A stretch of 64,000 nt of DNA from Lingula anatina (Eukaryota > Animalia > Brachiopoda): contig CM120648.1 in the NCBI GenBank assembly GCA_051362555.1, forward strand, positions 12,582,587-12,646,586. The letters run 5' to 3'. Every line of letters begins with the position of its first letter. Position 1 is the first letter of the stretch. Shown piece by piece: positions 381 through 59,799 of this stretch. Position numbers and translations under genes: made by a program. The notes beneath the pieces were generated by a model that was not told the origin of the DNA, did not search any database, and saw nothing but the letters and a program-made list of their open reading frames with translations.

Positions 381-507
381 ATTGCAGCACAATGAACTGC
401 CTGGGGGCGTGTATAGTCAGAGATCAACACTCCTACTGTCTCTGCCCTGACAGCGTGAAAGATAAAGTTGGCATCTTTGAAGACTCAGCACTATTCATAA
501 CACAGAG
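381..507 (+). CDS. Polycystin exon: Cys-rich EGF-like motif (CSTMNCLGACIVRDQHSYCLCPD...)
   Basis: acag| acceptor, ag|gtgac donor; the only open frame joins exon 2044 in phase. Confidence 0.7.
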
Positions 508-3500
508 GTGACTCAATATATTATAACCACTCACAACATAATATTAATTATTGTCTTTTTCCTTACTGCTCTTGAATTATGTGCTGCTTATTTTTAAGTA
601 ATAGTTTCCTGAATCCTCATTTATATAGAACTTGGCATACTCAATCAACATAATATAGCTTATTGTTAACAAGTTTAAAATGAGTCACGTCATTCAATAG
701 TTAGATTGTTTTTCCTAGGTAAACTTATATCCTTCTATAAAAATAACTTAGAATTAAAAATATACATTAAATGATTGATCTCTAGATGTACTGGGTAGTG
801 TAAGCTGTCTGACCCTGGAGCCAGGGTGTCCATACTTAATTGTCCAGTTGTTTCTCTAGGTGTACTGGTCAGTGTAAGCTGTCTGACCCTGGAGCCAGGG
901 TGTCCATACTTAATTGTCCAGTTGTTTCTCTAGGTGTACTGGTCAGTGTAAGCTGTCTGACCCTGGAGCCAGGGTGTCCATACTTAATTGTCCAGTTGTT
1001 TCTCTAGGTGTACTGGTCAGTGTAAGCTGTCTGACCCTGGAGCCAGTGTGTCCATACTTAATTGTCCAGTTGTTTCTCTAGGTGTACTGGTCAGTGTAAG
1101 CTGTCTGACCCTGGAGCCAAGGTGTCCATACTTAATTGTCCAGTTGTTTCTCTAGGTGTACTGGTCAGTGTAAGCTGTCTGACCCTGGAGCCAGGGTGTC
1201 CATACTTAATTGTCCAGTTGTTTCTCTAGGTGTACTGGTCAGTGTAAGCTGTCTGACCCTGGAGCCAGGGTGTCCATACTTAATTGTCCAGTTGTTTCTC
1301 TAGGTGTACTGGTCAGTGTAAGCTGTCTGACCCTGGAGCCAGGGTGTCCATACTTAATTGTCCAGTTGTTTCTCTAGGTGTACTGGTCAGTGTAAGCTGT
1401 CTGACCCTGGAGCCAGGGTGTCCATACTTGATTGTCCAGTTGTTTCTCTAGGTGTACTGGTCAGTATAAGCTGTCTGACCCTGGAGCCAGGGTGTCCATA
1501 CTTAATTGTCCAGTTGTTTCTCTAGGTGTACTGGTCAGTGTAAGCTGTCTGACCCTGGAGCCAAGGTGTCCATACTTAATTGTCCAGTTGTTTCTCTAGG
1601 TGTACTGGTCAGTTTAAGCTGTCTGACCCTGGAGCCAAGGTGTCCATACTTAATTGTCCAGTTGTTTCTCTAGGTGTACTGGTCAGTGTAAGCTGTCTGA
1701 CCCTGGAGCCAGGGTGTCCATACTTAATTGTCCAGTTGTTTCTCTAGGTGTACTGGTCAGTGTAAGCTGTCTGACCCTGGAGCCAGGGTGTCCATACTTA
1801 ATTGTCCAGTTGTTTCTCTAGGTGTACTGGTCAGTGTAAGCTGTCTGACCCTGGAGCCAAGGTGTCCATACTTAATTGTCCAGTTGTTTCTCTAGGTGTA
1901 CTGGTCAGTTTAAGCTGTCTGACCCTGGAGCCAAGGTGTCCATACTTAATTGTCCAGTTGTTTCTCTAGGTGTACTGGTCAGTGTAAGCTGTCTGACCCT
2001 GGAGCCAGGGTGTCCATACTTAATTGTCCAGTTGTTTCTCTAGGTGTACTGGTCAGTGTAAGCTGTCTGACCCTGGAGCCAAGGTGTCCTTAGAGGCTAT
2101 TTGTTATCACTGTGACCCTATGGACTACCTATGGGACCTCAGCCCAGTGAACACCACAGTGCAGGGACTGGACTGGAGCCAGGACACCACCACAGATAGA
2201 ACAGATAGAGGACTGAGTGTTAAACCAGGTGTTCTTGCACCTGGGGAACTCTACCTGGTCACAGCTAATGGTAAGTAGTGTGAGAACAGATGCAAATTTT
2301 AAGCTTGGTATTAGCCATTTGGGAATACTGTATATTCAGCAATAATGTTTATTCTTGTCACTTGAAGTTGGATTTTACATGTAACTTATGAAGAGAGATA
2401 AAAGCAACTGAATTATGTTGTAACATAAAAAGACTATTTCACTGATTTATTATTAAATCCAAACTGCTTCTTCAAAATAATTCAATACCATACAGATTCA
2501 ATCAGTGTGAAAGCATGAAATCAACTAGTTTCTTCTTTCTTCTGGTACAGTGCTGTCACCATCATATCATGTGTATCTGTACCGGTAGGTACAAGCCAGT
2601 CTGCTGGTACAGTGCTGTCACCATCATGTCATGTGTATCTGTACCGGTAGGTACAAGCCAGTCTGCTGGTACAGTGCTGTCACCATCATATCATGTGTAT
2701 CTGTACCGGTAGGTACAAGCCAGTCTGCTGGTACAGTGCTGTCACCATCATATCATGTGTATCTGTACCGGTAGGTACAAGTCAGTCTGCTGGTACAGTG
2801 CTGTCACCATCATGTCATGTGTATCTGTACTGGTACGTACAAGTCAGTCTGCTGGTACAGTGCTGTCACCATTATGTCATGTGTATCTGTACCGGTAGGT
2901 ACAAGCCAGTCTGCTGGTACAGTGCTATCTACATTATTATGTCAAGTGTGTCTGTAGGTACAAGCCAATCTGCTGGTACAGTGCTGTCTACATTATTATG
3001 TCAACTGTGTCTGTAGGTACAAGCCAATCTGCTGGTACAGTGCTGTCTACATTATTATGTCAACTGTGTCTGTAGGTACAAGCCAATCTGCTGGTACAGT
3101 GCTGTCTACATTATAATGTCAAGTGTGTCTGTAGGTACAAGCCAATCTGCTGGTACAGTGCTGTCTACATTATTATGTCAAGTGTGTCTGTAGGTACAAG
3201 CCAATCTGCTGGTACAGTGCTGTCTACATTATAATGTCAAGTGTGTCTGTAGGTACAAGCCAATCTGCTGGTACAGTGCTGTCTACATTATAATGTCAAG
3301 TGTGTCTGTAGGTACAAGCCAATCTGCTGGTACAGTGCTGTCTACATCATGTCATGTGTGTCTGTACTGGTAGGTACAAGCCAATCTGCTGGTACAGTGC
3401 TGTCAACATCATGTCATGTGTGTCTGTACCGGTAGGTACAAGCCAATCTGCTGGTGCAGTGCTGTCTACATCTTGTTTTATGTGTCTGTAGATACAAGTC

Positions 3501-6500
3501 AATCTGCTTGTACAGTGCTGTATACATCTTGTCTTATGTGTCTGTAGGTACAAGTCAGTCTGCTGGTGCAGTGCTGTCTACATCTTGTCTTATGTGTCTG
3601 TAGGTACAATTAAGTAAGTCTGCTGGTACAGTGCTGTCTACATCTTGTCTTATGTGTCTGTAGGTACAATTAAGGCAGTCTGCTGGTACAGTGCTGTCTA
3701 CATCTTGTCTTATGTGTCTGTAGGTACAATTAAGGCAGTCTGCTGGTACAGTGCTGTCTACATCATGACATATGTGTCTGTAGGTACAAACCAGTCTGCT
3801 GGTACAGTGCTGTCTACATCTTGTCTTATGTGTCTGTAGGTACAATTAAGTCAGTCTGCTGGTAAAGTGCTGTCTACATCTTGTCTTTTGTGTCTGTAGG
3901 TACAATAAAGTCAGTCTGCTGGTAAAGTGCTGTCTACATCTTGTCTTATGTGTCTGTAGGTACAATTTAGTCAGTCTGCTGGTACAGTGCTGTCTACATC
4001 ATGTCATGTGTGTCTGTACTGGTAGGTACAAGCCAATCTGCTGGTACAGTGCTGTCAACATCATGTCACGTGTGTCTGTACCGGTAGGTACAAGCCAATC
4101 TACTGGTGCAGTGCTGTCTACATCTTGTTTTATGTGTCTGTAGGTACAAGTCAGTCTGCTGGTGCAGTGCTGTCTACATCTTGTCTTATGTGTCTGTAGG
4201 TACAAATAAGTCAGTCTGCTGGTACAGTGCTGTCTACATCTTGTCTTATGTGCCTGTAGGTACAATTAAGTCAGTCTGCTGGTACAGAGCTGTCTACATC
4301 TTCAGGGATGCTAGTCTTCCGGTTTTTACCGGAATTCCGGTTTTTTGCGTCCAGTTATAAAATTTTCTGGTACTATATTTTGTTCCGGAATTCTCGTTTT
4401 TAACGTGGTCGCGGACTGGACGAACGATGCGTCAGAGGAACGTCGCATTTCAACCATTGCGACAGAGCTGCGTTTCAACACAATATCTAGTCACAACCGT
4501 AGCACGTGATTTATTTATGGCGCTTGATTGGTTGGAAATGTAGGCTTTAATGTCGGCACCCATGTGGAAAGTTTTGACACCGCGTGCGCGGAATTTTGAA
4601 CTAAACCAAACTAAATGGATTTCGCGGAGAGGGGAACAGACGATATTAGAAACATCGACATTACTGTCAAAAATAGATTTAGTTGGAGTTGGCTGGAGGA
4701 AAAGGACAATAATGACGATTTTTTTTCTACCTATGTTCGGAAGCGAAAGTCCCCCGGAGAAGCTTGGTGTGTATGGTGCAACGACGTGATCCGGTACGGA
4801 AGCAGTGGTAAAAAAGCTCTGAAAAACCATGCTAAAACAACTAAGCATGCCAAAGCACGTAGTTGTCTTTACACATTTTTGTTGCTTGGGCATTACCACG
4901 AAAGCCATTACCAATCTTTGAAAATGTTAAATGAAAGGGATTAACATTTAGTGACTATCATTATCATGCTGGTGATTATCAAGCTTACGTGAGGGATCAT
5001 TACTGTCTACTATGGGTGGTAGGTGTTTATGTACTGATGGCACTTCCATCTTGTCAATGTCAAGATTATCCTTGGAAACAACTGTTGAAAATTACCATGA
5101 AGTTGTGATGACATATATTGCAATATATTTATTAAATAAAATTTGAAATATAGTAATTGTTTCATAATCAATTTGTACCCCCCCCCCCCCCCCCTCTTTG
5201 CCAAAAAAAAGTTCAGGTTTTCTTTCCGGACCCCACTAGCATCCCTGCATCTTGTCTTATGTATCTGTAGGTACAAGTCAGTCTGCTGGTACAGTGCTGT
5301 CTACATCATGTTTCATACAAATGGGGACCAGCCCTAGTCCAGGAATATGCACAGTTTCTCCTTCCACTGGCTTTGAGATTGTCACCAATTTCTCAGTGAA
5401 TTGCTCTGGGTTCAGTGACAGCACTAGTCAACTCCACTATAACTACCATTTTTGAGATGGAGATCCTGCTACCAAGAATCAATCAGGTAACTTATTAGAA
5501 TTTTGTAGATGAATAATTTAAAGCACATGTAGACAACATAATACCCCCAGCTTTAAATTACAAAACAAAACCATTTCATTTTAAATGGCAGTATAGTAAA
5601 ATTGTTAGCCATTTCATTTTAAATGGTAGTTAAATTTGTTAGGTAAGCCGATGTTACAGAATCATAGGATCTGCATAACATATGGTCTTTCGAAATCTCA
5701 ACCAAACTCAAGCCGAATAGATCTGAGTCTGATATGTATGCACATAAGGAGATGAAGAAGCTTTCATGTTTCAGACCTGAAACTCTGTAATATTCCAACA
5801 CTGAGGGTTGACCTGTTCATGTCAACCAATATTTTTGTAAAAATGTTCATATTTCCCTCAGGTATCCTGTTAGGCAGCAGTTCTGGTGGTTTTATCCACA
5901 TCTCTGCCCTGTCTGTGTCTACAGCCAGCGAAAACAGTGAGGGAGAGGTCCGAGTGCATGCTGTCAATGAAGATGGTATGACGACAGTGGTGACTTCCAC
6001 CGTTCAGGTATGTTTACATTTAGCTGTGGGCTGGGGTTAGTGTGTGCATGCTGTCAATGACAGTGCTATGGGGATACTGGTGACTTCCACTGTGGAGATA
6101 ATTTGACATTAAATATGCAGTCCATGTCAACCTGAAGAACTTTCAAACCTACTGGCCCTTTGGGATACCAGGGGCCAAAAATGTACTGGCCTAAAATAAT
6201 ATTAAGGCCAGCAACTGAACAAATTCATATTATTGTACCACCAGTGTAGGCGCTGGCAGTACACATGGTTTTAGTCCCGATCCGTATGTTCCGCCGGCTC
6301 CTGCGGCTCCGCCAGCTCCGCCGCCATGTCACCGTTACCGCTTCTCCTCCTAGACTACAAGGGCCTGCGTACCCATCTCTTGGATTTAGGTCACCTATAA
6401 TCTCAACTCATTCCACATAAAATTTGGGCTTCATCAATGCTGGGGTCTAGGTGTGGCGCTCATTGCAATGCACCCTTGTCCAAAAATGGAAAAATTAAAT

Positions 6501-9500
6501 GCTAATTATCTCCCCTACGGAAGGAATTATGGGAAAAGTTTCTACAGACAGCTGACTGAAAGTCATATGTGGAGATTTCAAATATGTCCTTGGATTTGAC
6601 CTTTGAACTTTATTTCATGGTCAAACGGGTCAAAATTTTCAAAAAAATGAACTTTTTTTATGATAAAAAATTATTTGCGCAGATATTCAGAAACTACACA
6701 GACCTAACCAATAACATTATTGCAAAGTGTTACTCTTTGGGTCATCTTTCATCTCTGTGAAATTGGGGTCAATCGGTGCATTTTCACGGGAGTAGCTGCC
6801 ACAAGATATCGAAACTGAAAACTGTCTCTAATTCGGGAACCATTAAGGCTAGAGACCCATTCTTTTTTGCATTTTGTAGAGCATGTAAAGCCCAACGCTG
6901 GAGGTGCTGTATCAAAAAGTACATTGTGGTGGTGAAAGCAAAATGTGCAGTACGGTAATGTATAATAAATTTTGAACCCCGGAAAAATAAAACATAAGGC
7001 TTGGCAAGGCAGACAACTTTCTAAAATGACATTATTTCATAAATTTGAACATCTAGAACTTCTGAGCACCTACCATTTTAAGAATTTCAACCAAAATGAC
7101 CTTTTATTTATTTTAATTAAATTTTTACTGTAGGAAATTTATGGCACATTTTTGTAACTCCAAAATTGTAAAATTGTGTCCCTTATATCTCCAAAACTGG
7201 CAGAGATAGGTCCATAGTTACTATTAAAGTTGAATAGGAAGTCACATACTGGCAATTTAGCAGTGACTTTGAAATTGACCTTCGACCTACTTTTCACCTA
7301 AAACTGAACTTTGCAAATTTTCACTCCCTTTTATCTCCAAAACTGGCAGAGATAGGGCCATAGTTACTACTGAACTTGAATAGGAAGTCACATACTGGCA
7401 ATCTACAGCTAGGCTTTTTAATCTGTTCTCACTACCGTGATCGTGTCTACGGACACGGTTACTCTTCACCGTGACCAAGCCTACCGCCCACTTTTTGAAC
7501 AATGGAAGTAGGAGGATCGTTTAACAATGGATATTTAGCCAGTCGCGAGGCAGGAGAGCGTGTCCCGATCTCTCAACCTGGCAGGGGGCGACCGTCTTAT
7601 TCAGGAAGCGTGTGCATTTAGGCGTGATGGCATTAATAGCCGCTAATTGCTGTCCGGTAAATATTGCACCGCTTCTTATTACTTCAAAAATCAAAGCATC
7701 TACTTAATGTACTTCGTCAGTTAAACGGGAATATATAAAGCGGGTTTAGCAGAAAATACAATTTAGGCCCCAACCATTACTTTCCCCCCGTCTACCGTCG
7801 TTAACTTTGACGTGTCGACACTAACGACCCCACCATCATCGCACTCTACCACTCCATATCTGTCTGCAAATAATAGTATTTGGCAACATTACACTCAATC
7901 TACAAGTCAATAAAAATAACAAAAATAAATAAATACGCTGTACATTATCATTATTTCAGGACGTGTTTATAAGCCTTGGTTAATTTATGAAAATGTCTTT
8001 TTTTCTAGTTGAATGATATTAAAAAATTTACTATGAAGAGCATCGCCACTACAGAGATTAGGAAGTAAACTCTTCATGGCACTAAGATGGGTGCAAATGT
8101 GTACCCTCTCCAGCACTGTCAAAGGTCCACAAACAAATATACACACATTTGTCAGGACGACAAGATAGATTTCACTACGATGTATCAAGTGTAATAATTG
8201 TTTCATATATATTCTAAATGTTGCTTACTTATAATTGCATTAAGAAAAAATCAGTATATCAATTAATTTAGTTTAAATAAAATCATCTGCAACAGAGGCT
8301 AAAAGCTGTGCACCTGGGACTAAGGGAATGCCTAAGCTTAAACATATTGAAGACAAAGACAACTTCCTTTCTTTTCCGAGGGAACAATAACGGGGGCGAA
8401 AGGAGCAATTACAACGTGCAAACGTGCATCAGATAAGAAGCCCTACAATGTAGTTGCGATTTTATCTGCAATGGTGGTCACAAGCTGGTCTCATCCTTCA
8501 ATGCGATGGAGTTTGATACACCACACATGTAAACATTCATATTTAAGAAAAAATCGAAAAACATTTGTACAACTGGTCTGTGGGACAGTCATTTACTTGT
8601 ATTGAAACTTAAAAAGCATCAAGAAAGGGACTCACTTGTACAGTTGATATTTGAAGAATGACGCCGAAATATTTTCCTGTTCCTGCAGCGTACATTAACT
8701 GTACTTGTGTATACATGTAATTACGTACGTATTTATTCTCCTCTCGAAACATATCGCGCACAATTCTCTCGACAACTATCATCGTTATATGAGGAATGTT
8801 GAGGACATTTTGAAAAACAGGCAGTCTTAAAACAACTTTATCATTATTCTAAATATTTAAATACAAATGCATTTATAAGGGCAAATACTGTATATCATTT
8901 TGCTTGCTTATAGCCCGCATTTCTGAAGAAATGCAGTAAGTCACACTTTACAAAGGTTGAAATGGTGTCGCCGACATAAAACAACCACACTTGGCAATCA
9001 ATGTTATGCTGGAGTTTTGTTAAGTAATGTCAGGCATAGACCTGAAAAGGTTAATTTGATCTACATTAGTGCGTTAAACATCGAAACGAGGTAATTTCTG
9101 GTAGTGCGTCTCCGTCGATAATTAATATACCGGTATGATAGAAGAAAGAGTCTTGACAGTTTCCCTCAAAGTTATCTCTTCATTGTGTCCAGACGGGAGA
9201 TGTGCATTTGCTATACAGTACTAAGCAACGTTCGTACATAAACGTTTATCTAAACACATCTGTCAGGACGTCAAGATAGATTTCACTTAGATGTTTCAAG
9301 TATAATTTCATATTTACTCCAAATGTGGCCTGATTAAAAGTCCATAAAGAAAAACAGCATATCAATTAATTTATTTTAAGTGAAATCATCTGCAACAGAA
9401 GCTAAAAGCTGTGCACCTCGGACTAAGGGACTGCCTTTATTGAACTAAACTCAAACAACTTCCTTCCTTTTCATACAGAACAATAAAGGAGGTGAAAGCG

Positions 9501-12500
9501 GCAATTGCAGTATATATACGTGCATTGTACAGTGTACATCAATTAAGGGGTCCGGTTGCTGTAAAGGGTGTAATTATATATATGTACTCCAATGAGGTCT
9601 TGGTGCGATTTTATGTACTATTAAAACAACCTTATATTAATGTCACTGGGTTCAGCAACAAGAAATTTAATTCACATCTTTCCTATTATGTTAAATGAAA
9701 CAATCAGGGCTGAAGAGGTGGAATGGTTAAATAAATAAGGGGCGGGGGGGGGTATACTTTTTCGAGAGAGCCAGGGCTCAATGCCCCCCAGCACACAAGC
9801 AGGAAAACTAAAGGATTTCTTAAGGAAAATGCAATAAACTGGTTTCAAACTCCCCCCGAGAGTCCAGACTTAAATCCCATAGAAAACATCTGGTCTACGA
9901 TGAAACACCGCTTAAGAAAATACACTAAGCCAAAAACAAAAGATGAACTTATAAGTGGGATGCAGGAATTCTGGAAGACGGTCACAACTGAGGAATGTAT
10001 AAAGTACATAAACCATATAAACAAAGTTATTCCGGAGGTGTTGAAAAGGGAAGGCCGTGCATCCGGATATTAGATTAATGATTATCAGGAGAATGCACTT
10101 TTTCAATTAAATGACTGTTCGTGATAGCCATTTTATTAATTTGCCATTTTTAAAATTTATTTTTTATAAAATTGTTGTAGTTTACTGTATGGACGTTCCG
10201 TGTTAATTGTGAATAAACCGACTATTCATTGACTGCAATACTTTGTTTCATTATATATACATGTAGGTCACATTCCACTTCATTGAAAAAGACAATCACC
10301 GCATAATTCTGCCATATTCATACTTCACTTTTTCAATTGGCTTGAGCATGTTATCGTGACTCTTATCGTTTCACCTAAGCCAAAATAAGATGAAAGGGCA
10401 ACATCGGTAAATTAATTATATTTCATTCAATTACAAAATTCTATTTTTGAAAATGTCTACGAAGTTCGGAATGCGGTGAATAAACAGAAATATCGTCAGT
10501 GCTTGAACCATGGTTAAACCCAACATTTAGTCTTCCATGTCTTAACAAAAGGCACGTGCCGTTCTACACCAGAACAATGCTTGGAACTTGTGGGGCGTAT
10601 GATTGCACAGGCTGCTTGACGGGACACGATGTAGACAGCGGGGAGTCCGAGATGGTTACGATTGATAACTTAACAGCTTAAACTGTCGCTATTTGCCCTG
10701 TTATTATCCACGCGGGGGTTATCAGGAGTCACGGTCGCACTGACCGTGACCTACTGTGAACGGTCTTATTGACCTAGCTGTAAGTGTGATCTTGAAATTG
10801 ACCTTTGACCTACTTTTTACCATGAATTGAACTTTGCAAATTTTCATACCCTTTTATCTCCAAAACTGGCATAGATACACCCATAGTTACCATTAAATTT
10901 GAATAGAAAGTCATTAGAGGCAATTTACTGTGACCTTTAAATTGATCTTTGACCTACTTTTCACCATGAACTGAACTTTGCAAATGTTTGTTCCCTTTTA
11001 TCTCCAAAACTGGCAGAGATATGCCCATAGTTACTATTAAATTTGAATAGAAAGTCATTAGAGGCAATTTACTGTGACCTTTAAATTAACCTTTGACCTA
11101 TTTTTCACCATGAACTGAACTTTGCAAATTTCCGTTCCCTTTTATCTCCAAAACTGGCAGAGATATGTCCATAGTTACTATTGAACTTCTTATACTATGA
11201 TATTGAAATTTACCTTTGACCTACTTTTTCACCATAAACTGAGCCTTGCATATTTTCTTGCCTCTCATATCTTCAAAACTAGCAGAGATGTGCCCGTTGT
11301 TGCCCCTAGGTTTTCTCTTTTGTCAGCATATATGCACCACTGACAACACATTTCAAGGAAAACCAATAGGCCTTTTTTTTTAAATTTTTTTATTGCATAT
11401 CTCAACAAAAAATACAAAATTGATAAATAACTAAATAAAAATCACTCTCACTCACTCTCTCACTTACTCACAAAGAGACTCAGTCATTTGCAATATATAT
11501 ATATAGATAGATAGATATTGTATCATTTAAAATATTTGTCAACAATGATATATAATCTAATAGTAAAATACTTGATATAATATAATAACTAATTAATACT
11601 ATGATCTAATTCAGATAAAAACTAATATGTGTTTTACTATCAAATATCTGCAGGGGAACATACCATAGAAGATATCAGTCCAGGAAGAGAGGCTGCAACT
11701 TTTTCCATTTTTCATTAAATCTATCTATTGTCATATTTCTTAGACTTATATTTCTCTCTGCGATGTAGGCCTGTCTCCATTCTGTTTTAATATTTTCTAT
11801 GTTCGGGGTAATGTTTTTTATTTATATATTTCATATATTTCATATATAATAAATTTTGTTATGATCAGCAAACTGTTGAGTGCATTGCACTTCAAATTTG
11901 GAATTCCTAGAATCATATCAGATGCTGTTGATTGTAATACTTGTCCAGTCTTTAAGTGGATCCAGTCTTGTATTTGTGCCCAAAGGGGAGCAATTACTTT
12001 GCACTCAATAAATAATTAGTGTTGAATAGTTTCAGTGTGTTCATTACAGAAGGAGCAGGTCTCTGTGTCTTTAAGCCAATTTTTCGTAAAAAATTATTTG
12101 TAGCTAAAATTCTTTTTGATACTCTAAATTGAAACCAGCGCAGTTTAGTATCTAAAGTACATTGGAAAGCAATGTTATTCAAGATTTTCCACTCTTCAGC
12201 TGTGAGAGGTTCTTTAGAAAAGAGTTCCCATTTTGACATTGCATTAGTCTTTTTCATTTCGTTTGAGTTCAAAATATTGTAAAAAGAATTCCCTCCTTTT
12301 GTAAATTTAAGTAACCATTAAAGTTGGGTTGAAATTATAGGGAGCTCAATTTTTTCGTGTAAATTATCTAAATTCATTTGTTTTTGAAATTTTTTTTACT
12401 GCACATAGTATACTTGTGAATGTAACATAGTTTATTATATTCCCGTGCCTGAACTGTTCATATGTGAGGTAATTTCCCTCTGTATCTATCAAGTCATTTA

Positions 12501-15500: not shown

Positions 15501-18500
15501 AAATGTTGGAAATATATATAGATAGATAAATGAAAATATATTAATGAAATAAATAACATTTTGATAGACAGATACAAAGGAAAGGTATTGTAATTAGTCA
15601 ATCTTTTCTATGGGCATAAACTAACAAACTTTCAGGCAAATCATTTAATAATCACAAAAATTATATTTCTGCATAGTTTTGTGATGTTTTAATTCACAGA
15701 GTAGAACTACACGCAAACCGGCTACCATGTAAAATTCACATTATTGTCCCATATTTAAAAGATCAAGTAATTACTGTGTAGCACCAGGAAGTCTTTTCTT
15801 CCACAGATACGCAGTGATATGATGGAGGCAGTAGGTAATTTAACTATTGACAGCCTATCTACTGCCCAGCAAGCAGCAGAGACATTGACCAAACTCACAG
15901 AACACACCACAGAGATTACTGCAGACTCACAGGTACTGAGCACTTGGTGTCTTTGGCTTTGTAGATAGTTGCCTTTAATCTAGTATTTATATTCTTCAGG
16001 CTTCAGTATTTGTTTAATCCTCAAAACATGTTATATCAGGTTAAAAATTGTACATGCTGGTTCTGGTAAATGAATTCCCTTAGCAAAATATAAGGCCTTC
16101 TGCAAACTCTCTCTCAAATTCATCGTAAATATGCTGCTAATTTACTGTGAATTTGCAGCTAATTTGCTGCAAGCTTGCTGCTAATTTGCTGTGAATTTGC
16201 AGCAATTTTGCCAGAACATAAACTTTCTTACAAATCTGCTGTAAACTTTAGTTGTTATTGCAAATTTGTTGCAAATCAGCAAAAAAAAATTTCCTTGCAA
16301 ACTCATGCAAACTAGTTGCCACAAACGTTTCATTTTGCTAAGAGATTTTTTTGTTTTATCTGCAGACACTGCAAGTGGATTCATTTCATAGTGTTTTCTG
16401 GAATGTGTTATGTACTTGTCATAATGAAATTTGCTGCTAATTTGTTGCAAATTTGCCAAAACATAAAATCTTTTCTTGCAAACCTTCTGCAAACGTAAGT
16501 TTATTTGCAAATTAGCAGCAATACATATTTTTCTTGCAAACTCCTGCTCACTAGTTGCTGCAAACTTTAAATTTGCAGCAATTTTGCTGCAATATTGCTG
16601 CAAACTTTTCATTTTTCAACTTTCCATACGTGTTTGGGAAGCCCCCCTACGATTTTTTTGCACCCACGTCGTCAACTTACAGAAACTCAACATAAAAATC
16701 ATACATGTGAATTACACTAAGTTGTACAAATCTTCACTATTGTTATTCCGCACAAAATGGAATTTATGGGTATCGTGTACACTGCACAGACATCATTTTT
16801 CCTATTGAAAAGATCGAAGATTACCATACCTCCATATTGATTAGATTAATTTTCAGACTTCAGGCATGGACACAGTTGAAAGGTTATCCCTAGTGTTGAG
16901 CAGTAGACAGAGGAATGCAACTTTTACTGAAGTAGAGGACACTGCCACGTAAGCCAGAAAAGAAACTCTTTAAAAAACTTTGTAGCATGCTAAGACTTGA
17001 AGAGACACCAGTCTTCCTGGCCCCCATTTCACAAAGAATCTTAAATCCGTAGTTGACTAGCTTGAGCTGAGTGACATTACAAGGTCGATTACGCTGCAGT
17101 CAACTAGAGGTGTTTCACAAAGAATCTAAAGTCTTAGCTCGGTGCTCTTACCATAGTCAATGTACGCAAGAAACTCTTCAAGAAAAATAGATGTAAAAAT
17201 CCATAAAGTTTTGGCCGAGAACGGTCATTTATCAACAATAAAAATCAGTCAAAACATAAAACAAAGTTTGTTTTTGAGCTTTATTGATTAGTTTAACTTC
17301 AAAACAACTTCAAAGTAACATGAAAACATTAGCTTGTCTTGGAATGCTGCTGTAGGACATCTAGTGGTCAAAAATATAAACAAACCCGTGCTTGGCTGGA
17401 TGAAGTTGCATTTTAATTTTTTTTATTTAAATATTCAATTAATTTCAGTACTGTTCAAGGATATTATAACACAATATGTTGATGGAGGTATGTTCTTTCC
17501 AAATTTTTGTTGATTATGCTCTCATTTACCAAGTTTTAGTTGAGCTTCCTGACTTAGACACCTCCCAAGGAAGCTAGGATTTGTCGACTAGCAGCTAAGA
17601 AAAAAACGATGTAAGCGACCTTTTAGATTCTTCATGAAACATGACTAAATGAAGTAAGGACTTAATCACATTGATAATCAAGCTTTTAGTCAGGGAACCC
17701 GACTTAGGTTTTTTTGTGAAATGGAGCCCTGAGCACTAACATTGGACTAATATCTTAATTTATAAGCTTTGATTTGTTTTCATGGCATCAGATCCATCTC
17801 ATTCTAAGTGCATTTTCTATTTTGATATCTCATTATTTATTACAATATTAATTTATCTGCTCTTTTCCGTGCTTTAAATGTTTAAAGTAAAAAAAAAAAA
17901 AAAAAATAGAAACTTCGAACTAGGAACTACAAGTATAAGGCAAACAAGAGGACTTCTCTGCGTTCCATTGGCTGAGGCAAAAAACAAACAATATTTTGAA
18001 AACTCCTTATTGATCATATTTAACAAAATTATAAATAAATGTAGTTATGTTCATCGTTAAACTTAAAATATTGTTTCTTATTATTTAGTATGATTCTACA
18101 ATCCACCTCTAACCTGTTAAATGCCTCCATGGAGGAGTCGAGAGATGTGAATATCACCAACATGACACAACCTGAGAGGGTCAAAGTGCAGAAGGTGAGA
18201 AGAAAGATCAGAAGCCAGTCAGAGCCTTAGGGACCATTCCCAGACCCTATTGTACTAACTGTGCTCAGTCTTTCTCCAAGAGGATTCTTGCTAAATTGCA
18301 ATCAATTTAAGCAGCTTAGATGTCTGTCATGCCTACTGAAGCTGCTAGTAGATGTTAAGCAACTTCAGTGGGCATGCCAGACATCTAAGCCACTTAAGCT
18401 GAAAGCAGTTTAGCATGAAACCCCTTGGAGATGGATAGGTCCTGTTAGATCAATCTTGGTATGGGAACCTAGTCTTAGTCAGCTGTCTGATTAATTTCTC

Positions 18501-21500
18501 TTCCAGACAATACAAGCTTGTATAGCCAGGAATTTTAAAGAGGGGGGGGGGGGTCTTTTTCTGAAAAAGTGGATCTTTTACCACAAAACTTAGAGTACCT
18601 ATACATGTAGGTTAATAATTCTTACCTTCACAGACCTTTTCTCCGACAAAAAGGGCAAATGTTTGAACTCCCCTTACCTCCCTGGCTATGGGCCTGCAAT
18701 TCAATAGGCAAAAAAGCTGCAACCAAACAACCAGCCAAATCATCCAAACATCAACTAAACAACCAGCTAGATCAAACAAACAACCAGCAACATCAACTAA
18801 ACAACCAGCAACATCAACCAAACAACCAGCAACATCAACCAAACAACCATCCAGATCAACCAAACAACCGACAACGTCAACCAAATAAATCACATTTATT
18901 GTACCAAACACAAAAAAGGAAGAGAAAGAAGAAAAATTGGCACATTCTTTGCTCAGAATAAACAAAACAATTGCCTCTACCAAACATGCAAACAACCAAC
19001 AACAAACTATCCCATAAGTCAAAAGCAAGGAAGAAAAAGTTCCTACACCAAATAGTCCAATCCCTAATTATAAACCTCTCCAAACAAGATGTTTAATGTA
19101 TATTTTCATCTTGCAGACCAGATACATAGCAAATAAAGCACTGAATGTCATCAGCACTATCTCAGACACTGTGCTGGCAAAGAAGGTACCAGGGGAGGAA
19201 CCCATTGTTATAGCCACCAAGACTTTGAGTGTCAAGGTGGGTAAGCTTTGCCAAGAACAAAATTGAACCCACATGCTTGAAGAGTTAACATGTAGTATGT
19301 CTTCACTATTGTGGTAAGGCTGTCAGTTTTTCCCTCGCCTTGGTTCAAAGGGTTACAGAATATGTATCTTTCAGTAATGATGCCCCAGTTTCATTAAAAG
19401 GCTAGAGTAGAATGCTAATTAAAGCCATACTCATGAAAATTTAAGAAATGTTCAGCATAGAAATGATATGGTTAGAACAAATATTTACTTTATCATTTAA
19501 TCAAAAGTTAATCATATTGACTATTACCTAAAAAAAATTACCAATTTGTAAGTAATATGGTAGCAAAAATGTTTGTTGAAAAGAAATTTAACCCTTTTGT
19601 GCAACTTTCTTATCATTTGATAGAGAGCCAAAAAAATATATCCCTATCAATTTTTATTTCAACTTGAATCAGTTTTGCATCATTCTTCTATGATTCACTC
19701 ATTTTTTAAACTCAACCTTGGCATCAGATACTTTATGCCATGAGAAATTGTGTTTTAGTGTCAAAAATTGGACCTGGACACAATGAGTAGTTCCCACCAA
19801 CTGCAGGTGCCCCAGCTTATTTCAGCAGAAGGGGGGAGTGATGAGACACCACCATGTATGGTCGGCAGATTTGCTTTACCTCCTGTTCAAAATATGCTTC
19901 GTGATGGGCATAAAAATATTTCCACTGCAGTTAATTTGCAGGTACTATAACTTTTTTTAAAATTTGATTTAATTTATTTATTGTACCACCAACGTTAGCG
20001 CTGGCAGTACACATGGTTTTAGTCCCGTCCGGATCGTTCCGCCGGCTCCGCCAGACGGCTACCGTTACCGCTTCTCCTCCTAGACAGTAAGGGCCCCCGT
20101 ACCCATCTCTTGGATTTAGGTCACCTATAATCTCAACTCGCTCCACGTAAAATTTGGGCTTTGTCGGTTTTGGGGTCTAGGTTTGGCACTCATTGCAATG
20201 CACCCTTGTCTAAAAATGGCAAAATTAAATGCTAATTATCTACCCTACGGAAGGAATTATGGGAAAAATTTCTACAGACAGCTTTCCAAAAGTTATATGT
20301 GTAGATTTCAAATATGCCCTTGGATTTGACCTTTGACCTTTATTTCAAGGTCAAACGTGCCAAAATTTTCAAAAAAATGAATTTTTTTACGAAAAAAATT
20401 ATTTGCCCTGTTTTTCAGACACCACACAGACTTAACCAATAATATTATTGGAATGTGTTGCCCTTTAGGTCATCTTTCATCTCCGTGAATTTGGGGTCAA
20501 TCGGTGCATTTTCACGGGAGTAGCGGCCATAAGATACTGAAACTGAAAACTGTCTCTAATTCGGGAACCGTTAATGCTAGAGACCCATTATTTTTTGCAT
20601 TTTGTAGAGCATGTAAAGCCCAACACTGGGAGTGGTCTCGTTTTTTTTGTATTCCATACGGTTTTCGAGTTACGCTGTATCAAAAAGTACATATTGGTGG
20701 TGAAAGCAAAATGTGCAGTACGGTAATGGATAATAAATTTTGAACTCCGAAAAAATAGAACAAAAGGCTTGGAAAAGCAGACAACTTGTGGTCAAAAATG
20801 ACATTATTTCATCAAATTTGAACATCTGGAACTTCAGAGCACCTCCCATTTTAAGAATTTTGACCAAAATGACCTTTTCTTTATTTTAATTAATTTTTTC
20901 TGTAGGAAATTTATGGCACATTATGGTAACTCCAAAATTATAACATTTAGTCCCTTATATCTCCAAAACTGGCAGAGATAGGTCCATAGTTACTATTGAA
21001 GTTGAATAGGAAGTCATATACTGGCAATCTAAATGTGACCTTAAAATTGACCTTTGACCTACTTTTCACCATGAACTGAACTTTGCAAATTTTGGTTCCC
21101 TTTTATCTCCAAAACTGGCAGAGATAGGTCCATAATTACTATTGAAGTTGAATAGGAAGTCATATACTGGCAATTTACTGTGACCTTGAAATTGACCTTT
21201 GACCTACCTTACGATGAATTTAACTTTGATTGTACTATTTTTAGTCATATATATTTTTTGCATATTTTGAAAATTCTTGTTGATTGCATTTTTACAGCTT
21301 GTCAAGCACAAGACTGGTGGCTGTGTCCCTTATTTTGTGTATGTGGGGGTCTATACGTATGCGCTTGATCCAGCTGGTGGTACAATATTCGGAGGTGGTA
21401 TCGCCTCTCTGATCCTCTAGTTTATATACTTATTTATTTATTTATTTAACTGTTCATTGCTCACATGCTTGCACAATCTGCAAGGTTATCCATTTGTTCT

Positions 21501-24500
21501 AAGCCCAGGGATGGTAAATCTTTGATTAGACCAGTAGATTTTTTAGAACGTGTGAATTTAGTGGTCTGACACGGGCTTAAGATTTTTTCAAAAGAGCTGC
21601 TGATTTGATTTAATTTTTTTAAAGTAACTGTTACATGAATATTCTTATTAAAAATACATGACAAAAACAAGGTTTAATTATTATGATATCACTGTAATAG
21701 AGAGAAAATATTGAGTCTTTTTGATGTTTATTGGACTCATGCATCACTTTGGACCAGTTCATTTAAGAAATTAAAGTGGTTGTCCGATTGGCCAGTAGGT
21801 TGAAAAGTTAATGGACACAGTCTGTAACTGCTTTACTGAATACCAGTATGTCACATGCATCACTATAGTGTGTGTTTATGTTTGTGTGTGTGTGGGGGGG
21901 GTAATGAAAGACGGCCTCTTTGATGCTATTTTATTTTTTTCATTTATTTAACAATGTTAATGCTTTCAGAGAGCCCTCCTTACATATGATTCCCTGAACA
22001 TAGGCATATTTTAGTATCTTATAGTAAAATGGGTGTTTATTTATTAATTTATTTATCAGATGTTCTACATGCCGGAGAATCCATTCACCTGGGATGTTTC
22101 AGCTCAAGATGTCACCTCCAGCTGCTCTGGTATTAAAGTGATTATAGATGGTGCTAGGTACCAGCCTGCCTGGCTGCCAGAACCAATGGATATTTACATC
22201 CCTGTTGGAAGTAAGAAACTAAAAGATGTCGTGTAGACTAGTGACTTGTTGCTACAAAATATTCTATGAAAGGGATTTGTTTTGTTTATACTTTTGATAC
22301 TTTGTCCTCAAATTTCAATTTTACTTTCATATTCTCTCAAAACACTTTATACAAATATTTTCCACGTTACATGTATGTAAAAAAAAAATTTGGCATGCTG
22401 CTAGGTATTGGATTTTGAATTAACAAGTTTAAAACACGGTTATAGAGATACTGCTACATGTAGCAAGCTGGCTTACAGCTTCAGTTGGGAACAAGTTTAC
22501 ATGAGATTTAAATAAAACCACAAAAAAGATTTGAAAAAAACCTTAATTCTTTTTCACAGAAGCTGACATGAACTGTGGTATCACCCTCCTAAAACTTGAA
22601 GGAGGGACCAATGGAACCATGGAGGACGTCATTTACTTCAAGTTTGATGCTGAGACCAACAAATCACATCAGATTACCATCTGGCCAGTAGACAATAATA
22701 CCACCCTGCAAGTTTACCTGAAAGCCAATGCCAGGCCTAGCAAGGAAGAGGTATGCTGCTTGCATTTATGTGTAACCAAAAAAGAGTTACGATAAATTTT
22801 TAATATATTTTTTCACAGATATGCTCTTTCTGAAGTAAATTATGTGGTCAGTTATTGTTGAATTATAAGTATTGAATAGGTACTTGATTTTTTTCAAAAA
22901 GTATGCAGAAATTTAAAAGGATAACAACTGTTCATTTTGAACAAAAATTGAATAATCCTGTGGTACATAACAATTTTCTCATATAACCAATGGTTAATGA
23001 ACCCATCTCTGATTCAAAGTTAGTCCCTTTTTTTTCCTAAAAGTTTTTTTTTGTTATAATCTCTTAAGAGATTATTACAGAGTATGGCTATCTATGGAGG
23101 TCACAAGGCACAGATTTCAGAATAATTTCTATAACTGTCGTTTTTGTGATAAAATAAAATATATTATATTTCTGTGAGTTGTTTACAATTATGTATTTAT
23201 AGTGAAATGTAGATTTCACATGTAGAGTTGTTATCCCTTTAATCACCTCAAAAGCATAACGCAAAAATGTAATAAATCAGTGAGTAATTAATTAATATGG
23301 TCAGTTACAATTAAATTATGTGAGTACTTATTTAATTTTTTCCTAATTGATTGATTCCCTAGATCTTAAACAGCACTACACTTATCCCAGTTCCTGAGGA
23401 GATGCGTTATCATCATGGCAACCAAAGTGCCAGTGGCTATGTTCTGTTTGTCCCAGAAAATAAAACCACTGAGGCAGACACTGTATATTACATTGGGATC
23501 ACTTTGTTAAATACAAGTGATTTTGGGAACAGTGAGTATGGACATAACAGTGATTTTTTAAAAAATTGATTATTTTGATTTTTTGTAGACTTTTACTTAT
23601 TCTTAATTTTTAAGTTCATTTAAAATATATACTGCATTTAATTATATATTTTATTGTATGTTAAGTTATTTATGTAATGGAATTTATTTTAAGTCAATTT
23701 TATATTTGGTCAAGTACAAATAAATTCATATACTACAGGGCATTTTTTTTTTATGGTACTGTAATTTATTAGGGATTTTAACACAAATATTTTGCAATAA
23801 AACAGGATTTATACTCTTCAACGTTTTAGCTGATATCTTAGGGACCATTCCCACAGATATTTGGATCGATCTATCTCCCTAGAGAGTCTCACTAAATTGC
23901 TATCAACTTAAACTGCTTAAATATCTGTCACACCTAGTAAAGCTGTTAGCGGGTAATTATCTATACCACTGAGCTGATTCGGTATTGGTAATGGTACTAT
24001 ACTCCATTACTGTCTGTGATGGATGACAGCTTATTGGTATCGGATACTGTGCTCCATCACTCTCAGGCCCGTAGCCAGCAATTTCAATTGGGGGGTTCGT
24101 TTTCTGAAAAAGTGGACTTTTTACCATAAAACTTTCATGTACCTAGATCAAATTTTATCCAAAGTGGACCTTTTCCCAGCAAAAAGGGCAGTTCTTTCGA
24201 AACCCCGAACCCCCCCTGGCTACTGGCCTGACTCTCTCTCTCTCTCTGTACACTAATTTGATGACTTTCTCCTCATCTCCCTTTACTGTGCCCCCTTTCT
24301 GATAATAAGCAATTGTTTCTATGTTACAATACAACAGGACACCTAGATGTTAATGAGAATGTCCAACTTCTGGTCACAGTCCATTCCAGTGCCTGTCTGT
24401 TCTGGGATGAGCAGAAAGAAATATGGAGTAGTGAAGGATGTAAGGTAGTCAGCTTTTTGTTTAAATATAGATGAATTGATAGAATAATAAATAGATAAAT

Positions 24501-26081
24501 AAATATGAAAACACCAGGATTTTCACCTCATACTTTTCCCAATTTTTGCTTCCAAGTCTCTTATAGAAGATGTCTTCTCCAAACATATTCCAACTATATC
24601 TCACCTAACACATTTCCCACTTTCTGTATCCAGGTTTCTCCCCTCAGCACAACTGTTACTTTACACTGTATCTGTCATCACATGACTGTGTTTTCTGGCG
24701 GTTTCTTTATTCTGCCTAATGCCATTGACATCGTGGCAGACTCTGCTCTGTTCTTGACTTTACTGGAGAACCCACTGGTGGTGAGCATTGTGCTGTGTGT
24801 ATGGGGCATCTACCTGGCAATTGTTATCTGGGCACGCAAGAAGGACAGGGAAGACCTTCTTAAGGTGAATGAACCTCTGCTTTTGATATACAAAATTGCT
24901 TGGGGATTGTGAGAAGATTTTATTTCAGTTTACCATGACTTTAATGGGTCTCAGGAGAGTCCCTTTTTGATTCCTTCTCAGCCATTTAATATGTGATTGA
25001 AAAAGTTAATGCACTCCGCCCCATCCCACCCAATAACAGCTGATGTTGTATACTTATTTTGGTATTTATGCAACAAAATAAAACTCAATATCGGGCATTA
25101 TCTATATCAGTAACCACTAAATTAAAGCAAAGCTTCCAGTTGCTCATATTTTGATGTTTTCAAACACTTACATGTAGATTTAGTATATAGATTGAGCATT
25201 CTGCACAACAGAAGTTTTAGCTTAAATCAGTTGCAAGCTTTTGGGCTTCACTGTTGCTAATGACATTAATAGTAACAATTCTTTTCATGTCTCTAGGCTG
25301 GAGTGACAGTGTTAGAAGACAATGATCCAGAGAATAAGTATGGCTACCTTGTGACAGTTATCACTGGCTGGAGGACAGGGGCAGGGACCACAGCTAATGT
25401 GGGCTGTTTTATTAAAGGTGAATTTCAAGGCTGCACTAGAAAAAAAAGTGGTGAAAATTAATTACAAACCAATTCAAACTTTAATTGCACAGTAACAAAC
25501 TTGTCGCTTGTTTTCAAATTTTTTTTCCATTTCAAAGGTGAAAATGGTGAAAGTGACCGTCATGTCCTGAGCGACCCCAATCATCCAGTATTTGAGAGTG
25601 GTGGCGTGGACAGTTTCCTACTGACCTGTGCCCAGTGCATGGGTGACCTCCTCTCTGTCACCATCTGGCACGACAACTCTGGAGCTGCCCCTGCCTGGTT
25701 TCTGGAGAAGTTGATGGTAAGAGACTTGCAGAGAAATGAGGTGTTTGAGTTCCTATGTAACCGCTGGCTTGCTCTGGACCTGGATGACTTCTGCATCCAG
25801 CGCACATTGTGCCCTGCCTCAGTGGAGGAGATGAAGGAGTTCTCGTACCTGTTCTCCAGTAACAGTGGCTTCAGCATGAGGGAGAAACATCTGTGGGTCA
25901 GTGTGTTCTCTTGTCCACCAAACTGTCCCTTCACAAGGACCCAGAGACTGACCTGTGCTCTGACTCTTCTACTGACCACCATGCTGACCAATATCATGTT
26001 TTATGGCATCCCAACTGATGACCCAGAAGATCAGTACCAAGTAAGATTATTTGATTAATCTTTTTACCCAGCTACATCTAT

Positions 26082-26116
<35 letters not shown>

Positions 26117-27317
26117 TTGGTTTTAGGTGTTTTGTTTGTTTGTTTATGTATTTTATCAAAAAAAAAAGTTTCTGTCATTGTTGCATTTGCTTAAAATGTT
26201 GTATATTGTACCGAAACAAAAAATTCTTTCGTTGTTGCAACTGCTTAAGGAAATGTTTGCTTAAAATGTTTGATTGGTTATGACATTGTATTAGGTATGA
26301 TTTTTACTGGAAAGACATTTATTATTGGTTTAGGTAATTTCAATTCTTCCATCCAGAGTATGATTTTAAGAATTTATATAAAGGAAATTCAATTCCAGGT
26401 AGCAGATTTCCAATTTTCTCTATCTGACATAATAATTGGTATTGAGAGTGGGCTGCTGATGTTCCCAGTGAACCTGGTCATAGTGCAGCTATTTAGAATG
26501 TGTGCTCCAAGACCTGTTAGTACACATAAGGAAGATGTCACACCCAGAACTTCCATGGAACAAAGCAATTCAGCTCAGATGGCCGTGCTAGGAGCAGATG
26601 TAAACCATTCACAGAGCAGAAATAGGAGTAGCGTCTCGGGGAATGTGATTGGTGATGGTGATGTAGATAAAGTACCAAATGCAACCTCTAACAGTGCAAA
26701 TAAAAGTAGTTTAAATACTGATGACCAGGCTGTCACAGATAGAAACATTACACTCTTTAATGAAAATGAAAGTGAGAACAACTTCTGGCCTTGCACTTTG
26801 GGTGTGGCCATCCTCGCTGGAGGAGAAGTGACGGGTCAAGTGTCTACTGACCAGTCTATGGACATGGGTGGACATTTAACTGGGTGTAAGAAAGAAAGCC
26901 AGACTGTGGAAGAAGACAGTATATGGTGTGGATCGGGTGCTGGTGTCAGGCCATCTGACCTTAATCTCACACTTGACCTTGACCTACTTCACAGAGAAAG
27001 CCCTGACATACCATTGATAAATATGGTAGGTGCAGTGCTCAGAGAAAGTTGCAGAATTTTTTAATGAAATTTTTCAAAAAGGAGGATGTTTAAGGGTTCT
27101 CCCCCCCCCCCCCCCTTCTGTTTTATTGCTATAAATTTATTCTTTTTTTTTCTTATTTAGGACAATTCAAATGAAGTTTCTGTGATTACAATGGAGGAGG
27201 AAAAGAATACACCTTTCAGGTGAATGAAATTTTTGTCTTGTTTTTTATTTTTTATTTTCACAAAAGAAGTGTTACTACTGAATTTGAGTGAGTGAGTGTA
27301 ATTTAACTTTTATCCTT

Positions 27318-27351
<34 letters not shown>

Positions 27352-28693
27352 CTATTACACAGAAACACTCATGCTCACTCACATACCAGTACATGCACAA
27401 ACATGCACTCTTTCCCTCTCTCTCTTTCTCACACATACACACACACATAAAGATCTCATGCTGTATAGGTACCAGGACAACCCCATCCACACACCCCTGG
27501 CTGGTTCTTCTATTAGATGACTCTGTTCTGTAGCTTTACTTTGTCTTTAGACTTCCATGGTGGTGTATCTACATAGTCTGGGTGGTGGCTGTGATAACAT
27601 GTAGCTTTACATTGTCTTTAGACTTCCATGGTGGTGTATCTACATAGTCTGGGTGGTGGCTGTGATAACATGTAGCTTTACATTGTCTTTAGACTTCCAT
27701 GGTGGTGTATCTACATAGCCTGGGTGGTGGCTGTGATAACATGTAGCTTTACTTTGTCTTTAGACTTCCATGGTGGTGTATCTACATAGTCTGGGTGGTG
27801 GCTGTGATAACGTGTAGCTTTACTTTGTCTTCAGATTTCCATGGTGGTGTATGTACATACAATGTAGCCTGGGTGGTGGCTGTGATAACTTGTAGCTTTA
27901 CTTTGTCTTTAGACTACCATGGTGGTGTATCTACATAGCCTGGGTGGTGGCAGTGTTAACCTGTCTGGTCTGTTCTTACTACACCATGTTGTACGGACTC
28001 AAGTATGGACACAAGAAAAGTGTGCAGTGGGTGGTTGCCTTCTTTACAGGGTTCTTCCAAAGTGTGTGCATTACACAGCCAATTAAGGTGAGTAGCAGCA
28101 AAAAGGAGGCCATTTTAGATTTATGTTCTTTTTGTATAATTACTAGGCTTTTTTTTTTTTAGTTTAAAAATGTTTAGGCTGTTTTGTTTTAGGGTAAACT
28201 AGCAGTAGGACTCTTCATTTAAAGAAATAAATAGCTTTTTATTTATTTATTTTTTTTATTAGAAATTTAAATTAAAATTTGGTATTAAGTTATGTTGTGA
28301 AACAGGTTACTTGTTTGCATTGATAACCTTTGTATAAAGTGTTAAATGCAGGCAGTTAAAACGGGATTTGCAAATATATCTTTGTTATCTTGTTAACAGA
28401 CAACAAAATAAAAAGTATAATGAAAAAAAAAAACGAAAAAAATGCATTTATACCGACACAATGACAATGTAAGCTGTAAAAACGAACGGAATAAAGAGTA
28501 TGATATAAATTTAGCAGCTTGATTTGGAGCTCAATTAATTACAACAGTCAGTACTTTTTAAACCACTACCAGTCATATTGAGAGAAATTATTTACTGTTA
28601 CTATAAATAATAATAATAATAAGAAGAAGAATATCTATTTAAGAAAATATTTGCATGGCATAAGATTGCTGTGATATTGATACATTTGTTTTC

Positions 28694-28728
<35 letters not shown>

Positions 28729-30713: not shown

Positions 30714-30756
<43 letters not shown>

Positions 30757-58770: not shown

Positions 58771-59244
58771 AAAAAAAGAAGTGTCAGTTTCAAAAAACCA
58801 TAAAATGTGAAAGTCTATACTTAACCCAAAAAGTGGGTATTGGTAATTATTACTTTGCATGTCATGCTTTATTTGGAATGCATGTGCAATGTTTTAATTT
58901 GATATGTATAAGCATGGTAGCCGTCAGGTTGCATGTCAATTATCATATGTAAATAAAAATCAATCATAAAAGACAAGGCAGAGTCTCACAAGATAGACAT
59001 AGGTAGAGGGACAGATACACTGATACTTGCAGAGACCTGAATCTTGTACTAAACTGTACAATTGTAGCAAACCATCACCTGGATAATTGGTGAAAGTAAT
59101 CCTTAATATAAGGAAAACATCTTAAAGGCAAAAGTAGTGGGCAGGGGAACTGTCCTTGGAGGCCAGGACACATAGTGGAGCAACCACTTCCTCAATGCAG
59201 ACCTACTCTTACCCAAGGGATCCACATTTGAGTGGCGGTACAAT

Positions 59245-59761
59245 CCCAGATAGCATGCATACGTTGGGCCAACGTTGGGGAATGGTTGGTTTGTTGGCAC
59301 ATAGTTGGCGTTGGCAATATTACGTTGGCCCAACGTTGGCCCAACTACATCATTATATGCATAATGTAACTGCAATATGTACACGTTGGCCCAACGTTGG
59401 CCCAACCACATCATTTTATGAAATAACGTAACTGCAATATGCACACGTTGGGCCAACGTTGGGCCAACGTAGTCAACGTATGCAATTAACAACCCAATAG
59501 TTAATTTGAAAGTGTTTCTGTTCACAACTGAGAAGCACATATACCTATCTTTTGATCATATACATAGTGTTATTAGGCTTAAAAGAAAAATATAATTTTT
59601 TTTTCATTATGAGTTTAATTTCCTTGAGTTAAAATCAGTTTTCTGCTTTAATTTATCCTCCAAGCAATAAACATTCATATATAGTACTACTACAAGTACT
59701 TCACCTATATAAAGAACTGAATGAAAAAAAATATTTTTCCAATAATGCTGCGAAAACATTA

Positions 59762-59799
<38 letters not shown>

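What the first reader, a model, noticed from the sequence alone, without database searches (positions are those of the whole stretch)
786..27960. Recurrent tandem amplification of splice-acceptor/exon-start junctions in one gene (decoy 3' splice-site arrays)
Seen directly: five unrelated junctions of the polycystin gene carry upstream tandem copies of [intron end + AG + start of the exon]. These are 786-2043 (17 x 74 bp), 2540-4302 (~30 x ~60 bp), 15130-15330 (2 decayed), ~24520-24560 (1 decayed) and 27529-27912 (5 x 71 bp). A decayed donor-side copy lies at ~6045-6110. In each acceptor case only the last copy continues into the real exon. The units share no sequence, so this is not a TE family. 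Inference: a process that repeatedly seeds minisatellites at exon boundaries (R-loop or splicing-linked breaks, GC/nucleosome step), or a regulatory use as decoy acceptors feeding NMD. The copies form an age series from homogeneous to decayed.
Basis: partly seen in the sequence, partly recalled or inferred. Interest (0 to 1): 0.85.

Follow-up and report, generated by a model that had tools for sequence, protein, structure and literature searches.

The report
Splice-junction "mirage" repeats in brachiopod gene
In a brachiopod polycystin gene, six exon borders have been copied head to tail into the neighbouring intron, a repeat type already known as a "mirage"; the copies are likely tolerated clutter, although some RNA reads at one border do carry repeat sequence.

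Summary
The window holds a 27-exon PKD1-like gene whose closest proteins are from the brachiopod Lingula anatina (93-99% identity). The E15 copy is borderline and lacks the AG. A 945-bp transposon-like element separates the E2 array from its exon, and E2 has an in-frame stop. This is the published amphioxus 'mirage' type, with human donor-side equivalents; this scan has noted it before in annelid, clam and urchin genomes. 'Only the last copy continues into the exon' follows from tandem-duplication geometry. Junction enrichment within the gene is nominally strong (6 of 52 junctions vs 1.4% of intron probes) but vanishes if transposon satellites are counted, and the window was picked for the feature. 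RNA confirms correct E19-E20 splicing, yet 12 of 32 sense reads at the E20 acceptor carry array sequence (0 of 24 at E21). That fits leaky decoy use or slow intron removal; a regulatory NMD role is untested.

The parts
381..43170 (+). PKD1-like polycystin gene (REJ, GPS, PLAT, polycystin domain, channel); 27 exons seen in the window (E0 381-507 to E26 42321-43170); may extend 5' of the window
   Evidence: E1-E26 all GT-AG with consistent phases; Pfam; 93.2% over 1852 aa to P0002 and 95.6% over 1598 aa to P0001; E0 from the N-terminus of P0002
779..2089 (+). E1 acceptor array, 74-bp unit (28 intron + 46 exon bases), 17 decoys then the real acceptor at 2044; only the 5'-most unit is diverged
2538..4302 (+). 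E2 acceptor array, 56-64-bp units in variant blocks, 29 junction copies; several proximal units are closest to the real junction (57-59 of 60)
4303..5247 (.). Transposon-like insertion inside the last array unit (13-bp terminal inverted repeats, 6-bp flanking duplication), ending 23 bases before the real E2 acceptor
   Evidence: transposon class not tested (no Pfam hit for its ORF)
5271..5486 (+). Exon E2, symmetric (phase 1-1), with in-frame TGA at 5453-5455 where paralogue P0002 has Trp
5954..6110 (+). E3 donor duplication, 90-bp offset, one decayed copy (6044-6110) that has lost GT
15115..15408 (+). E5 acceptor, two decayed copies (15158, 15286), AG kept; real acceptor 15379
24523..24561 (+). 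Borderline decayed copy of the E15 acceptor region; AG not kept in the alignment
27529..27964 (+). E20 acceptor array, 71-bp unit (22 intron + 49 exon bases), 5 decoys then the real acceptor at 27913; array sequence seen in RNA reads
41549..41663 (+).

Best explanation
These are 'mirage' minisatellites: short tandem duplications that include a splice junction, likely made by ordinary local duplication and then expanded or homogenised by unequal exchange, and likely tolerated because the intact exon and its nearest splice site stay in place and are the ones mostly used. Shown: the copies, their independent units, the block structure of variants, the splicing of E19 onto the real E20 position. 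Inferred: (1) a 50-130-bp duplication arises with little or no breakpoint homology; (2) duplications inside coding exons are purged, while those crossing a junction leave all extra sequence in the intron, so geometry alone puts the real exon last (acceptors) or first (donors); (3) two copies seed slippage or unequal crossing-over, with array ends left out of homogenisation; (4) exon definition favours the acceptor nearest the exon's own donor; (5) selection is imperfect, so a minority of transcripts keep array sequence and would be NMD substrates, a cost rather than a function; (6) old copies decay and lose AG or GT. Weak selection on a redundant, low-expressed paralogue, here with a nonsense codon, would let more arrays persist.
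For: Same architecture as published mirages, whose units are 10-160 bp, with AG/GT in many but not all repeats, concerted evolution and excluded ends (PMC3087553 passages). Units unrelated to each other. Diverged 5'-most unit in E1 and E2 arrays, variant blocks in E2. E15 and E3 copies lost AG/GT. 11 reads in X13 join E19 sequence to position 27911-27913; E20-E21 joints 3, 13 and 8 reads in X12, X13, X14. Annotated paralogues P0001 and P0002 carry no insertion at any arrayed junction they cover (these are predicted models). The gene's introns are rich in other tandem repeats: 8 of 14 local duplication events are not at junctions. At least three near-identical paralogous proteins exist and this copy has a stop in E2. 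Three contigs of DNA run X1 show the head-to-tail unit junction at 27529.
Against: Junction-spanning events are more frequent than uniform seeding predicts under most nulls: 6 of 52 junctions vs 1.4% of 2309 non-satellite intron probes, P 8e-5; event-level P 7.5e-5 to 0.062, rising to 0.002-0.34 if junction copies stay detectable twice as long. So a seeding or expansion bias may be real. 12 of 32 sense reads at the E20 acceptor run into array sequence, more than 'silent' decoys would give. Four decayed copies (E5 x2, E25, last E20 unit) keep AG.
Confidence: 0.65

Rival explanations
1. Junction-biased mutation: transcription- or splicing-linked lesions (R-loops, paused polymerase, nucleosome edge) or repair templated near exon borders seed or expand duplications at splice junctions more often than elsewhere; the arrays are still functionless.
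For: Nominal 8-fold excess at junctions when transposon satellites are left out; six events in one gene; recurrence in amphioxus genes; unchecked notes of this scan in other invertebrates (leads only).
Against: No excess when satellites are counted (6 of 52 vs 11.5% of 3001 probes, P 0.56). Window selected for the feature. Exon halves are conserved by selection, which lengthens detectability. No sequence feature separates amplified from other acceptors (n=5 vs 21, low power). Acceptor vs donor bias 5 of 26 vs 1 of 26 is not significant (p 0.19).
Confidence: 0.25
2. Regulatory decoys: upstream acceptors divert a share of transcripts to NMD, so repeat number tunes polycystin dosage and is selected.
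For: 12 of 32 sense reads at E20 carry array sequence vs 0 of 24 at E21 (Fisher p 0.0006 pooled; X13 alone 6 of 22 vs 0 of 13, p 0.06). 4 reads in X13 cross a unit-to-unit junction. Several decoys score as well as or better than the real site. All 53 AG decoys give a stop.
Against: No E19-to-decoy joint was listed, though the stretch laid could not show most of them. Reads from up to 5 units and from several paralogues collapse on one unit, so the share of molecules could be about 12% to 60%. Four antisense reads lie on the array too. A retained intron fits equally. Old copies lose AG/GT. The gene copy has a nonsense codon and low expression (depth 2-12 in X12, near 0 in X15 and X18).
Confidence: 0.07
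3. Assembly artefact: the arrays are collapsed or inflated by the assembler.
For: No long read was laid over any array; copy numbers are unverified.
Against: Units carry ordered variants and decay; one array is split by an element with a target duplication; the E20 unit junction is in short-read DNA contigs and RNA reads, with a different unit variant in X13.
Confidence: 0.03

Closest known systems
Amphioxus 'mirage' minisatellites (Adh3, globins BflGb6/BflGb9, troponin C, PGBD5); PMC3087553 and PMC3902484, passages read; original Adh3 paper PMC117041 not held
   Same: Tandem copies of an exon-intron boundary inside the intron, both acceptor and donor side, unrelated units, several per gene, concerted evolution with diverged ends, normal splicing retained.
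   Different: Host is a brachiopod, not a cephalochordate; six junctions in one gene and up to 29 copies (3-6 reported for BflGb6); one array split by a transposon-like element; RNA reads here carry array sequence, whereas RT-PCR in amphioxus showed no interference.
Human junction-spanning VNTRs: F7 IVS7, CBS IVS13, 6-16, lamin B2, PDGF (PMC1557585, abstract and passages read)
   Same: First unit spans the junction; identical pseudo-sites mostly silent; leaky use of nearby pseudo-sites reported for 6-16 and CBS.
   Different: Those are donor-side and one per gene; here five of six are acceptor-side.
Intron gain by duplication of a proto-splice site (Rogers model; Zhuo 2007; Gao and Lynch 2009), seen only as cited in PMC3087553
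   Same: Internal tandem duplication creates extra splice sites.
   Different: No new intron position is seen here; the duplications only lengthen existing introns.

Membership tests
mirage minisatellite | Repeat unit spans an exon-intron boundary (exon edge plus intron edge) | tested here: met
   six junctions
mirage minisatellite | Head-to-tail copies lie in the intron next to the authentic exon | tested here: met
   E2 array displaced by a later insertion
mirage minisatellite | Many but not all copies keep AG/GT | tested here: met
   53 of 54 acceptor copies at E1, E2, E5, E20, E25 keep AG; E15 and E3 copies do not
mirage minisatellite | Concerted evolution inside the array, ends excluded | tested here: met
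   per-copy identities, (clear for E1 and E2; no tree built)
mirage minisatellite | Regular splicing is kept | tested here: inconclusive
   E19 joined at the real E20 position in 11 reads, but 12 of 32 sense reads carry array sequence; reads mix alleles and paralogues; E1, E2, E5, E25 not tested
mirage minisatellite | Copy number varies between alleles or somatically | tested here: inconclusive
   X13 reads show a different unit variant; copy number not measurable from short reads
transposon-derived satellite | Units share sequence with a dispersed repeat family | tested here: not met
   units unrelated to one another and each matches its own exon; only the window could be searched
PKD1-like polycystin | REJ, GPS, PLAT, polycystin (TOP) and channel domains in order | tested here: met
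   (GPS E 4e-4 and one REJ piece just under the curated cut-off); domain list of P0001
regulated unproductive splicing (AS-NMD) | Decoy junction used in mature mRNA, stabilised by NMD inhibition, conserved | not testable with these tools
   no NMD-inhibited or long-read RNA; no orthologous genomic DNA

The most novel reading that the evidence does not exclude
Splice junctions are mutational hotspots for minisatellite birth in marine invertebrates, and the resulting acceptor arrays are leaky: a sizeable share of transcripts enters through a decoy and is lost to NMD, so unstable repeat number acts as a heritable dosage dial and a route to switching off redundant paralogues.
Probability: 0.12. 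Interest if true: 0.7.

Novelty: new member of a known kind. Interest (0 to 1): 0.3.

Why it matters
It extends a little-studied repeat type to a brachiopod; a search for Lingula anatina with minisatellite found no paper, and 'mirages' with amphioxus found 3 papers, 2 relevant. A gene with 17 to 29 near-identical acceptors ahead of an exon is a natural test of how 3' splice sites are chosen, and the E20 reads suggest the choice is not perfect. Such arrays also mislead gene prediction. If junction bias held genome-wide it would tie splicing to mutation, but one hand-picked gene cannot show that.

Tried and rejected
No whole genome is held, so the genome-wide enrichment test was not possible. 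The first RNA lay showed exon-restricted + strand depth in X12, but DNA contig rows crowded out RNA joints and 27 joint rows were not shown. The run search listed no indexed RNA holder; raw-read RNA runs of the same species label were used. The E1, E2, E5 and E25 arrays and the E2 stop were not tested with reads. Shared motif among units: rejected. GC step, AG|GT proto-splice context, exon length as predictors: no difference. A11 (score 34) and D5 (31) were rejected as AT-rich low-complexity matches. The 112-bp array at 62106-63069 was considered as a donor-side mirage of a minus-strand gene: not supported, since two frames found no homologue, the HMMER search gave only two repetitive chance proteins and the acceptor scores 0.7; the Atlas gave no answer. 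Papers not held: PMC117041, PMC1783408, PMC2791625. PMC10078293 passages concern human splicing-associated repeats in general and add nothing specific. No supplements were read; those of PMC3087553 hold the mirage alignments.

Full report
Gene. The + strand holds a PKD1-like polycystin gene. A model of E1-E26 (2044-43170) has GT-AG introns and consistent phases throughout and gives 1866 codons with one internal stop. Pfam finds REJ, GPS, PLAT, polycystin and channel domains in order. The last exon finds a Lingula anatina protein at 97%; its cluster has 4 members. The model aligns to P0001 at 95.6% over 1598 aa without gaps, to P0002 at 93.2% over 1852 aa with two gaps away from the arrays, and to P0003 at 99.3% over 447 aa. 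So the host is a Lingula brachiopod or very close, the exon borders are independently supported, and the gene belongs to a set of recent paralogues. The N-terminus of P0002 adds an exon E0 at 381-507. The internal stop is a TGA at 5453-5455 in E2 where P0002 has Trp; whether it is fixed, polymorphic or a sequencing error was not tested.

Observation. I aligned a 60-base probe across each of 51 junctions to the adjacent intron against 300 shuffles, then listed the copies. E1 acceptor: 17 decoys, 74-bp unit, all AG. E2 acceptor: 29 junction copies, 28 with AG; the array ends at 4302 and a 945-bp element with terminal inverted repeats and a 6-bp duplication sits between it and the real acceptor at 5271, so the 500-bp probe test missed it. 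E3 donor: one copy, GT lost. E5 acceptor: two decayed copies. E20 acceptor: five decoys. The E15 copy is borderline and lacks AG. The units are unrelated (3 of 28 pairs at nominal p<0.05). That only the last acceptor copy continues into the exon needs no explanation: any tandem duplication of intron tail plus exon head has this form.

More than chance? As repeats, yes: 0 hits in 3 shuffled controls. As a preference for junctions, unclear. A diagonal scan found 14 local duplication events in the gene; 6 are junction-derived (E2 assigned by hand), 5 are satellites that I read as parts of dispersed elements, 3 are other intronic repeats. By position, 6 of 52 junctions score 36 or more against 1.4% of 2309 non-satellite intron probes (P 8e-5) but 11.5% of all 3001 probes (P 0.56). 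By event, P runs from 7.5e-5 to 0.34 with the assumed unit length, intron target size and longer detectability of copies whose exon half is conserved. The window was chosen for this feature, so none of these is an unbiased test. Amplified acceptors show no distinctive GC step, AG|GT context or exon length. Reading the breakpoints by eye, shared bases are short, about 4 at E20 and 0-1 at E1.

Splicing. All 53 AG-bearing decoys would lead to a stop within 2-79 codons. Under a matrix built from this gene's own 26 acceptors, many decoys equal or exceed the real site, for example 11.9 vs 9.5 at E20, so sequence alone does not mark the real one; nearness to the exon's donor is the likely cue (inference; duplicated-site experiments favouring the proximal copy, and one study with the opposite result, are cited in PMC1557585). 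RNA of runs labelled as the same species lies on exons, on the + strand, at depth 2-12 in X12 and near zero in X15 and X18. On 27813-29312, 11 reads of X13 bring E19 sequence to 27911, and E20-E21 joints number 3, 13 and 8 in X12, X13, X14; X16 laid 2 reads. But sense reads covering intron position 27910 number 2, 6 and 4 against 4, 22 and 6 at 27916, that is 12 of 32; at E21 the upstream depth is only the 2-base overlap (0 of 24 by my reading) and the bin before E22 is empty. Four X13 reads step back 71 bases, a unit junction in RNA. Limits: reads were counted from 90% likeness and mix alleles and paralogues; mates may count twice; up to five units collapse on one, so the share of molecules is roughly 12-60%; four antisense reads also lie on the array; all three runs are one study; decoy use and intron retention cannot be told apart. 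X13 reads carry unit variants absent from the window (27879, 27881, 27885, 27910), two of them matching the real exon, so the array exists in another allele or paralogue and was homogenised separately. Three contigs of DNA run X1 show the unit junction at 27529; X1 holds half the window's words and I cannot exclude that it is related to the source.

Known or new. Tandem repeats spanning exon-intron boundaries are named 'mirages' in amphioxus, reported in Adh3, two globins, troponin C and PGBD5, on both sides of exons, unstable in length, of unclear origin and without effect on RT-PCR products (PMC3087553 and PMC3902484, passages). Human donor-side cases include F7, CBS, 6-16, lamin B2 and PDGF, with leaky use in two (PMC1557585, abstract and passages). 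I reached the mirage reading from these papers before consulting the scan's notes, which list 8 similar findings in other genomes and none in this one. Searches for a brachiopod report or a genome-wide enrichment study in invertebrates found none in the held library.

Verdict. A real, dense example of a known repeat type in a new phylum-level host. Most likely neutral or mildly harmful duplications kept because the exon survives, on a redundant paralogue with a nonsense codon (0.65). Junction-biased mutation remains open (0.25); selected decoy regulation is unlikely (0.07). The one unexpected result is array sequence in polyA RNA at E20, on small numbers. Interest 0.3.

Noticed in passing
window 5453-5455: In-frame TGA in symmetric exon E2 (Trp in paralogue P0002); this copy may be a null allele, or E2 may be skipped. 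The same exon has the largest array and an insertion 23 bases before its acceptor.
   Followed up: partly
window 57715-63069: 112-bp array (62106-63069, 8.6 copies) with one more unit at about 59137-59244 and older ~297-bp-period relatives at 57734-58758, split by a 2.86-kb element (59245-62105) with terminal inverted repeats and a 2-bp duplication. Each young unit has a donor-like GT on the minus strand, but no protein homologue supports an exon.
   Followed up: partly
window 4303-5247: Short element with 13-bp inverted ends and a 6-bp target duplication; its 109-aa ORF (4615-4941) looks like a transposase zinc-finger start (recalled resemblance to hAT; no Pfam hit).
   Followed up: no
window 32030-37104 (also 7179-7405, 10785-11301, 20951-21210): 146-bp satellite within a dispersed element, expanded to 5 kb in intron E23-E24 with an apparent higher-order duplication of about 2.5 kb.
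   Followed up: no
window 9735-10070: Tc1/mariner-type DDE_3 fragment in intron E3-E4 (E 5e-11).
   Followed up: no
window 26399-27025: E18 encodes a long low-complexity loop that is the most variable part between paralogues by inspection of P0001 and P0002.
   Followed up: no
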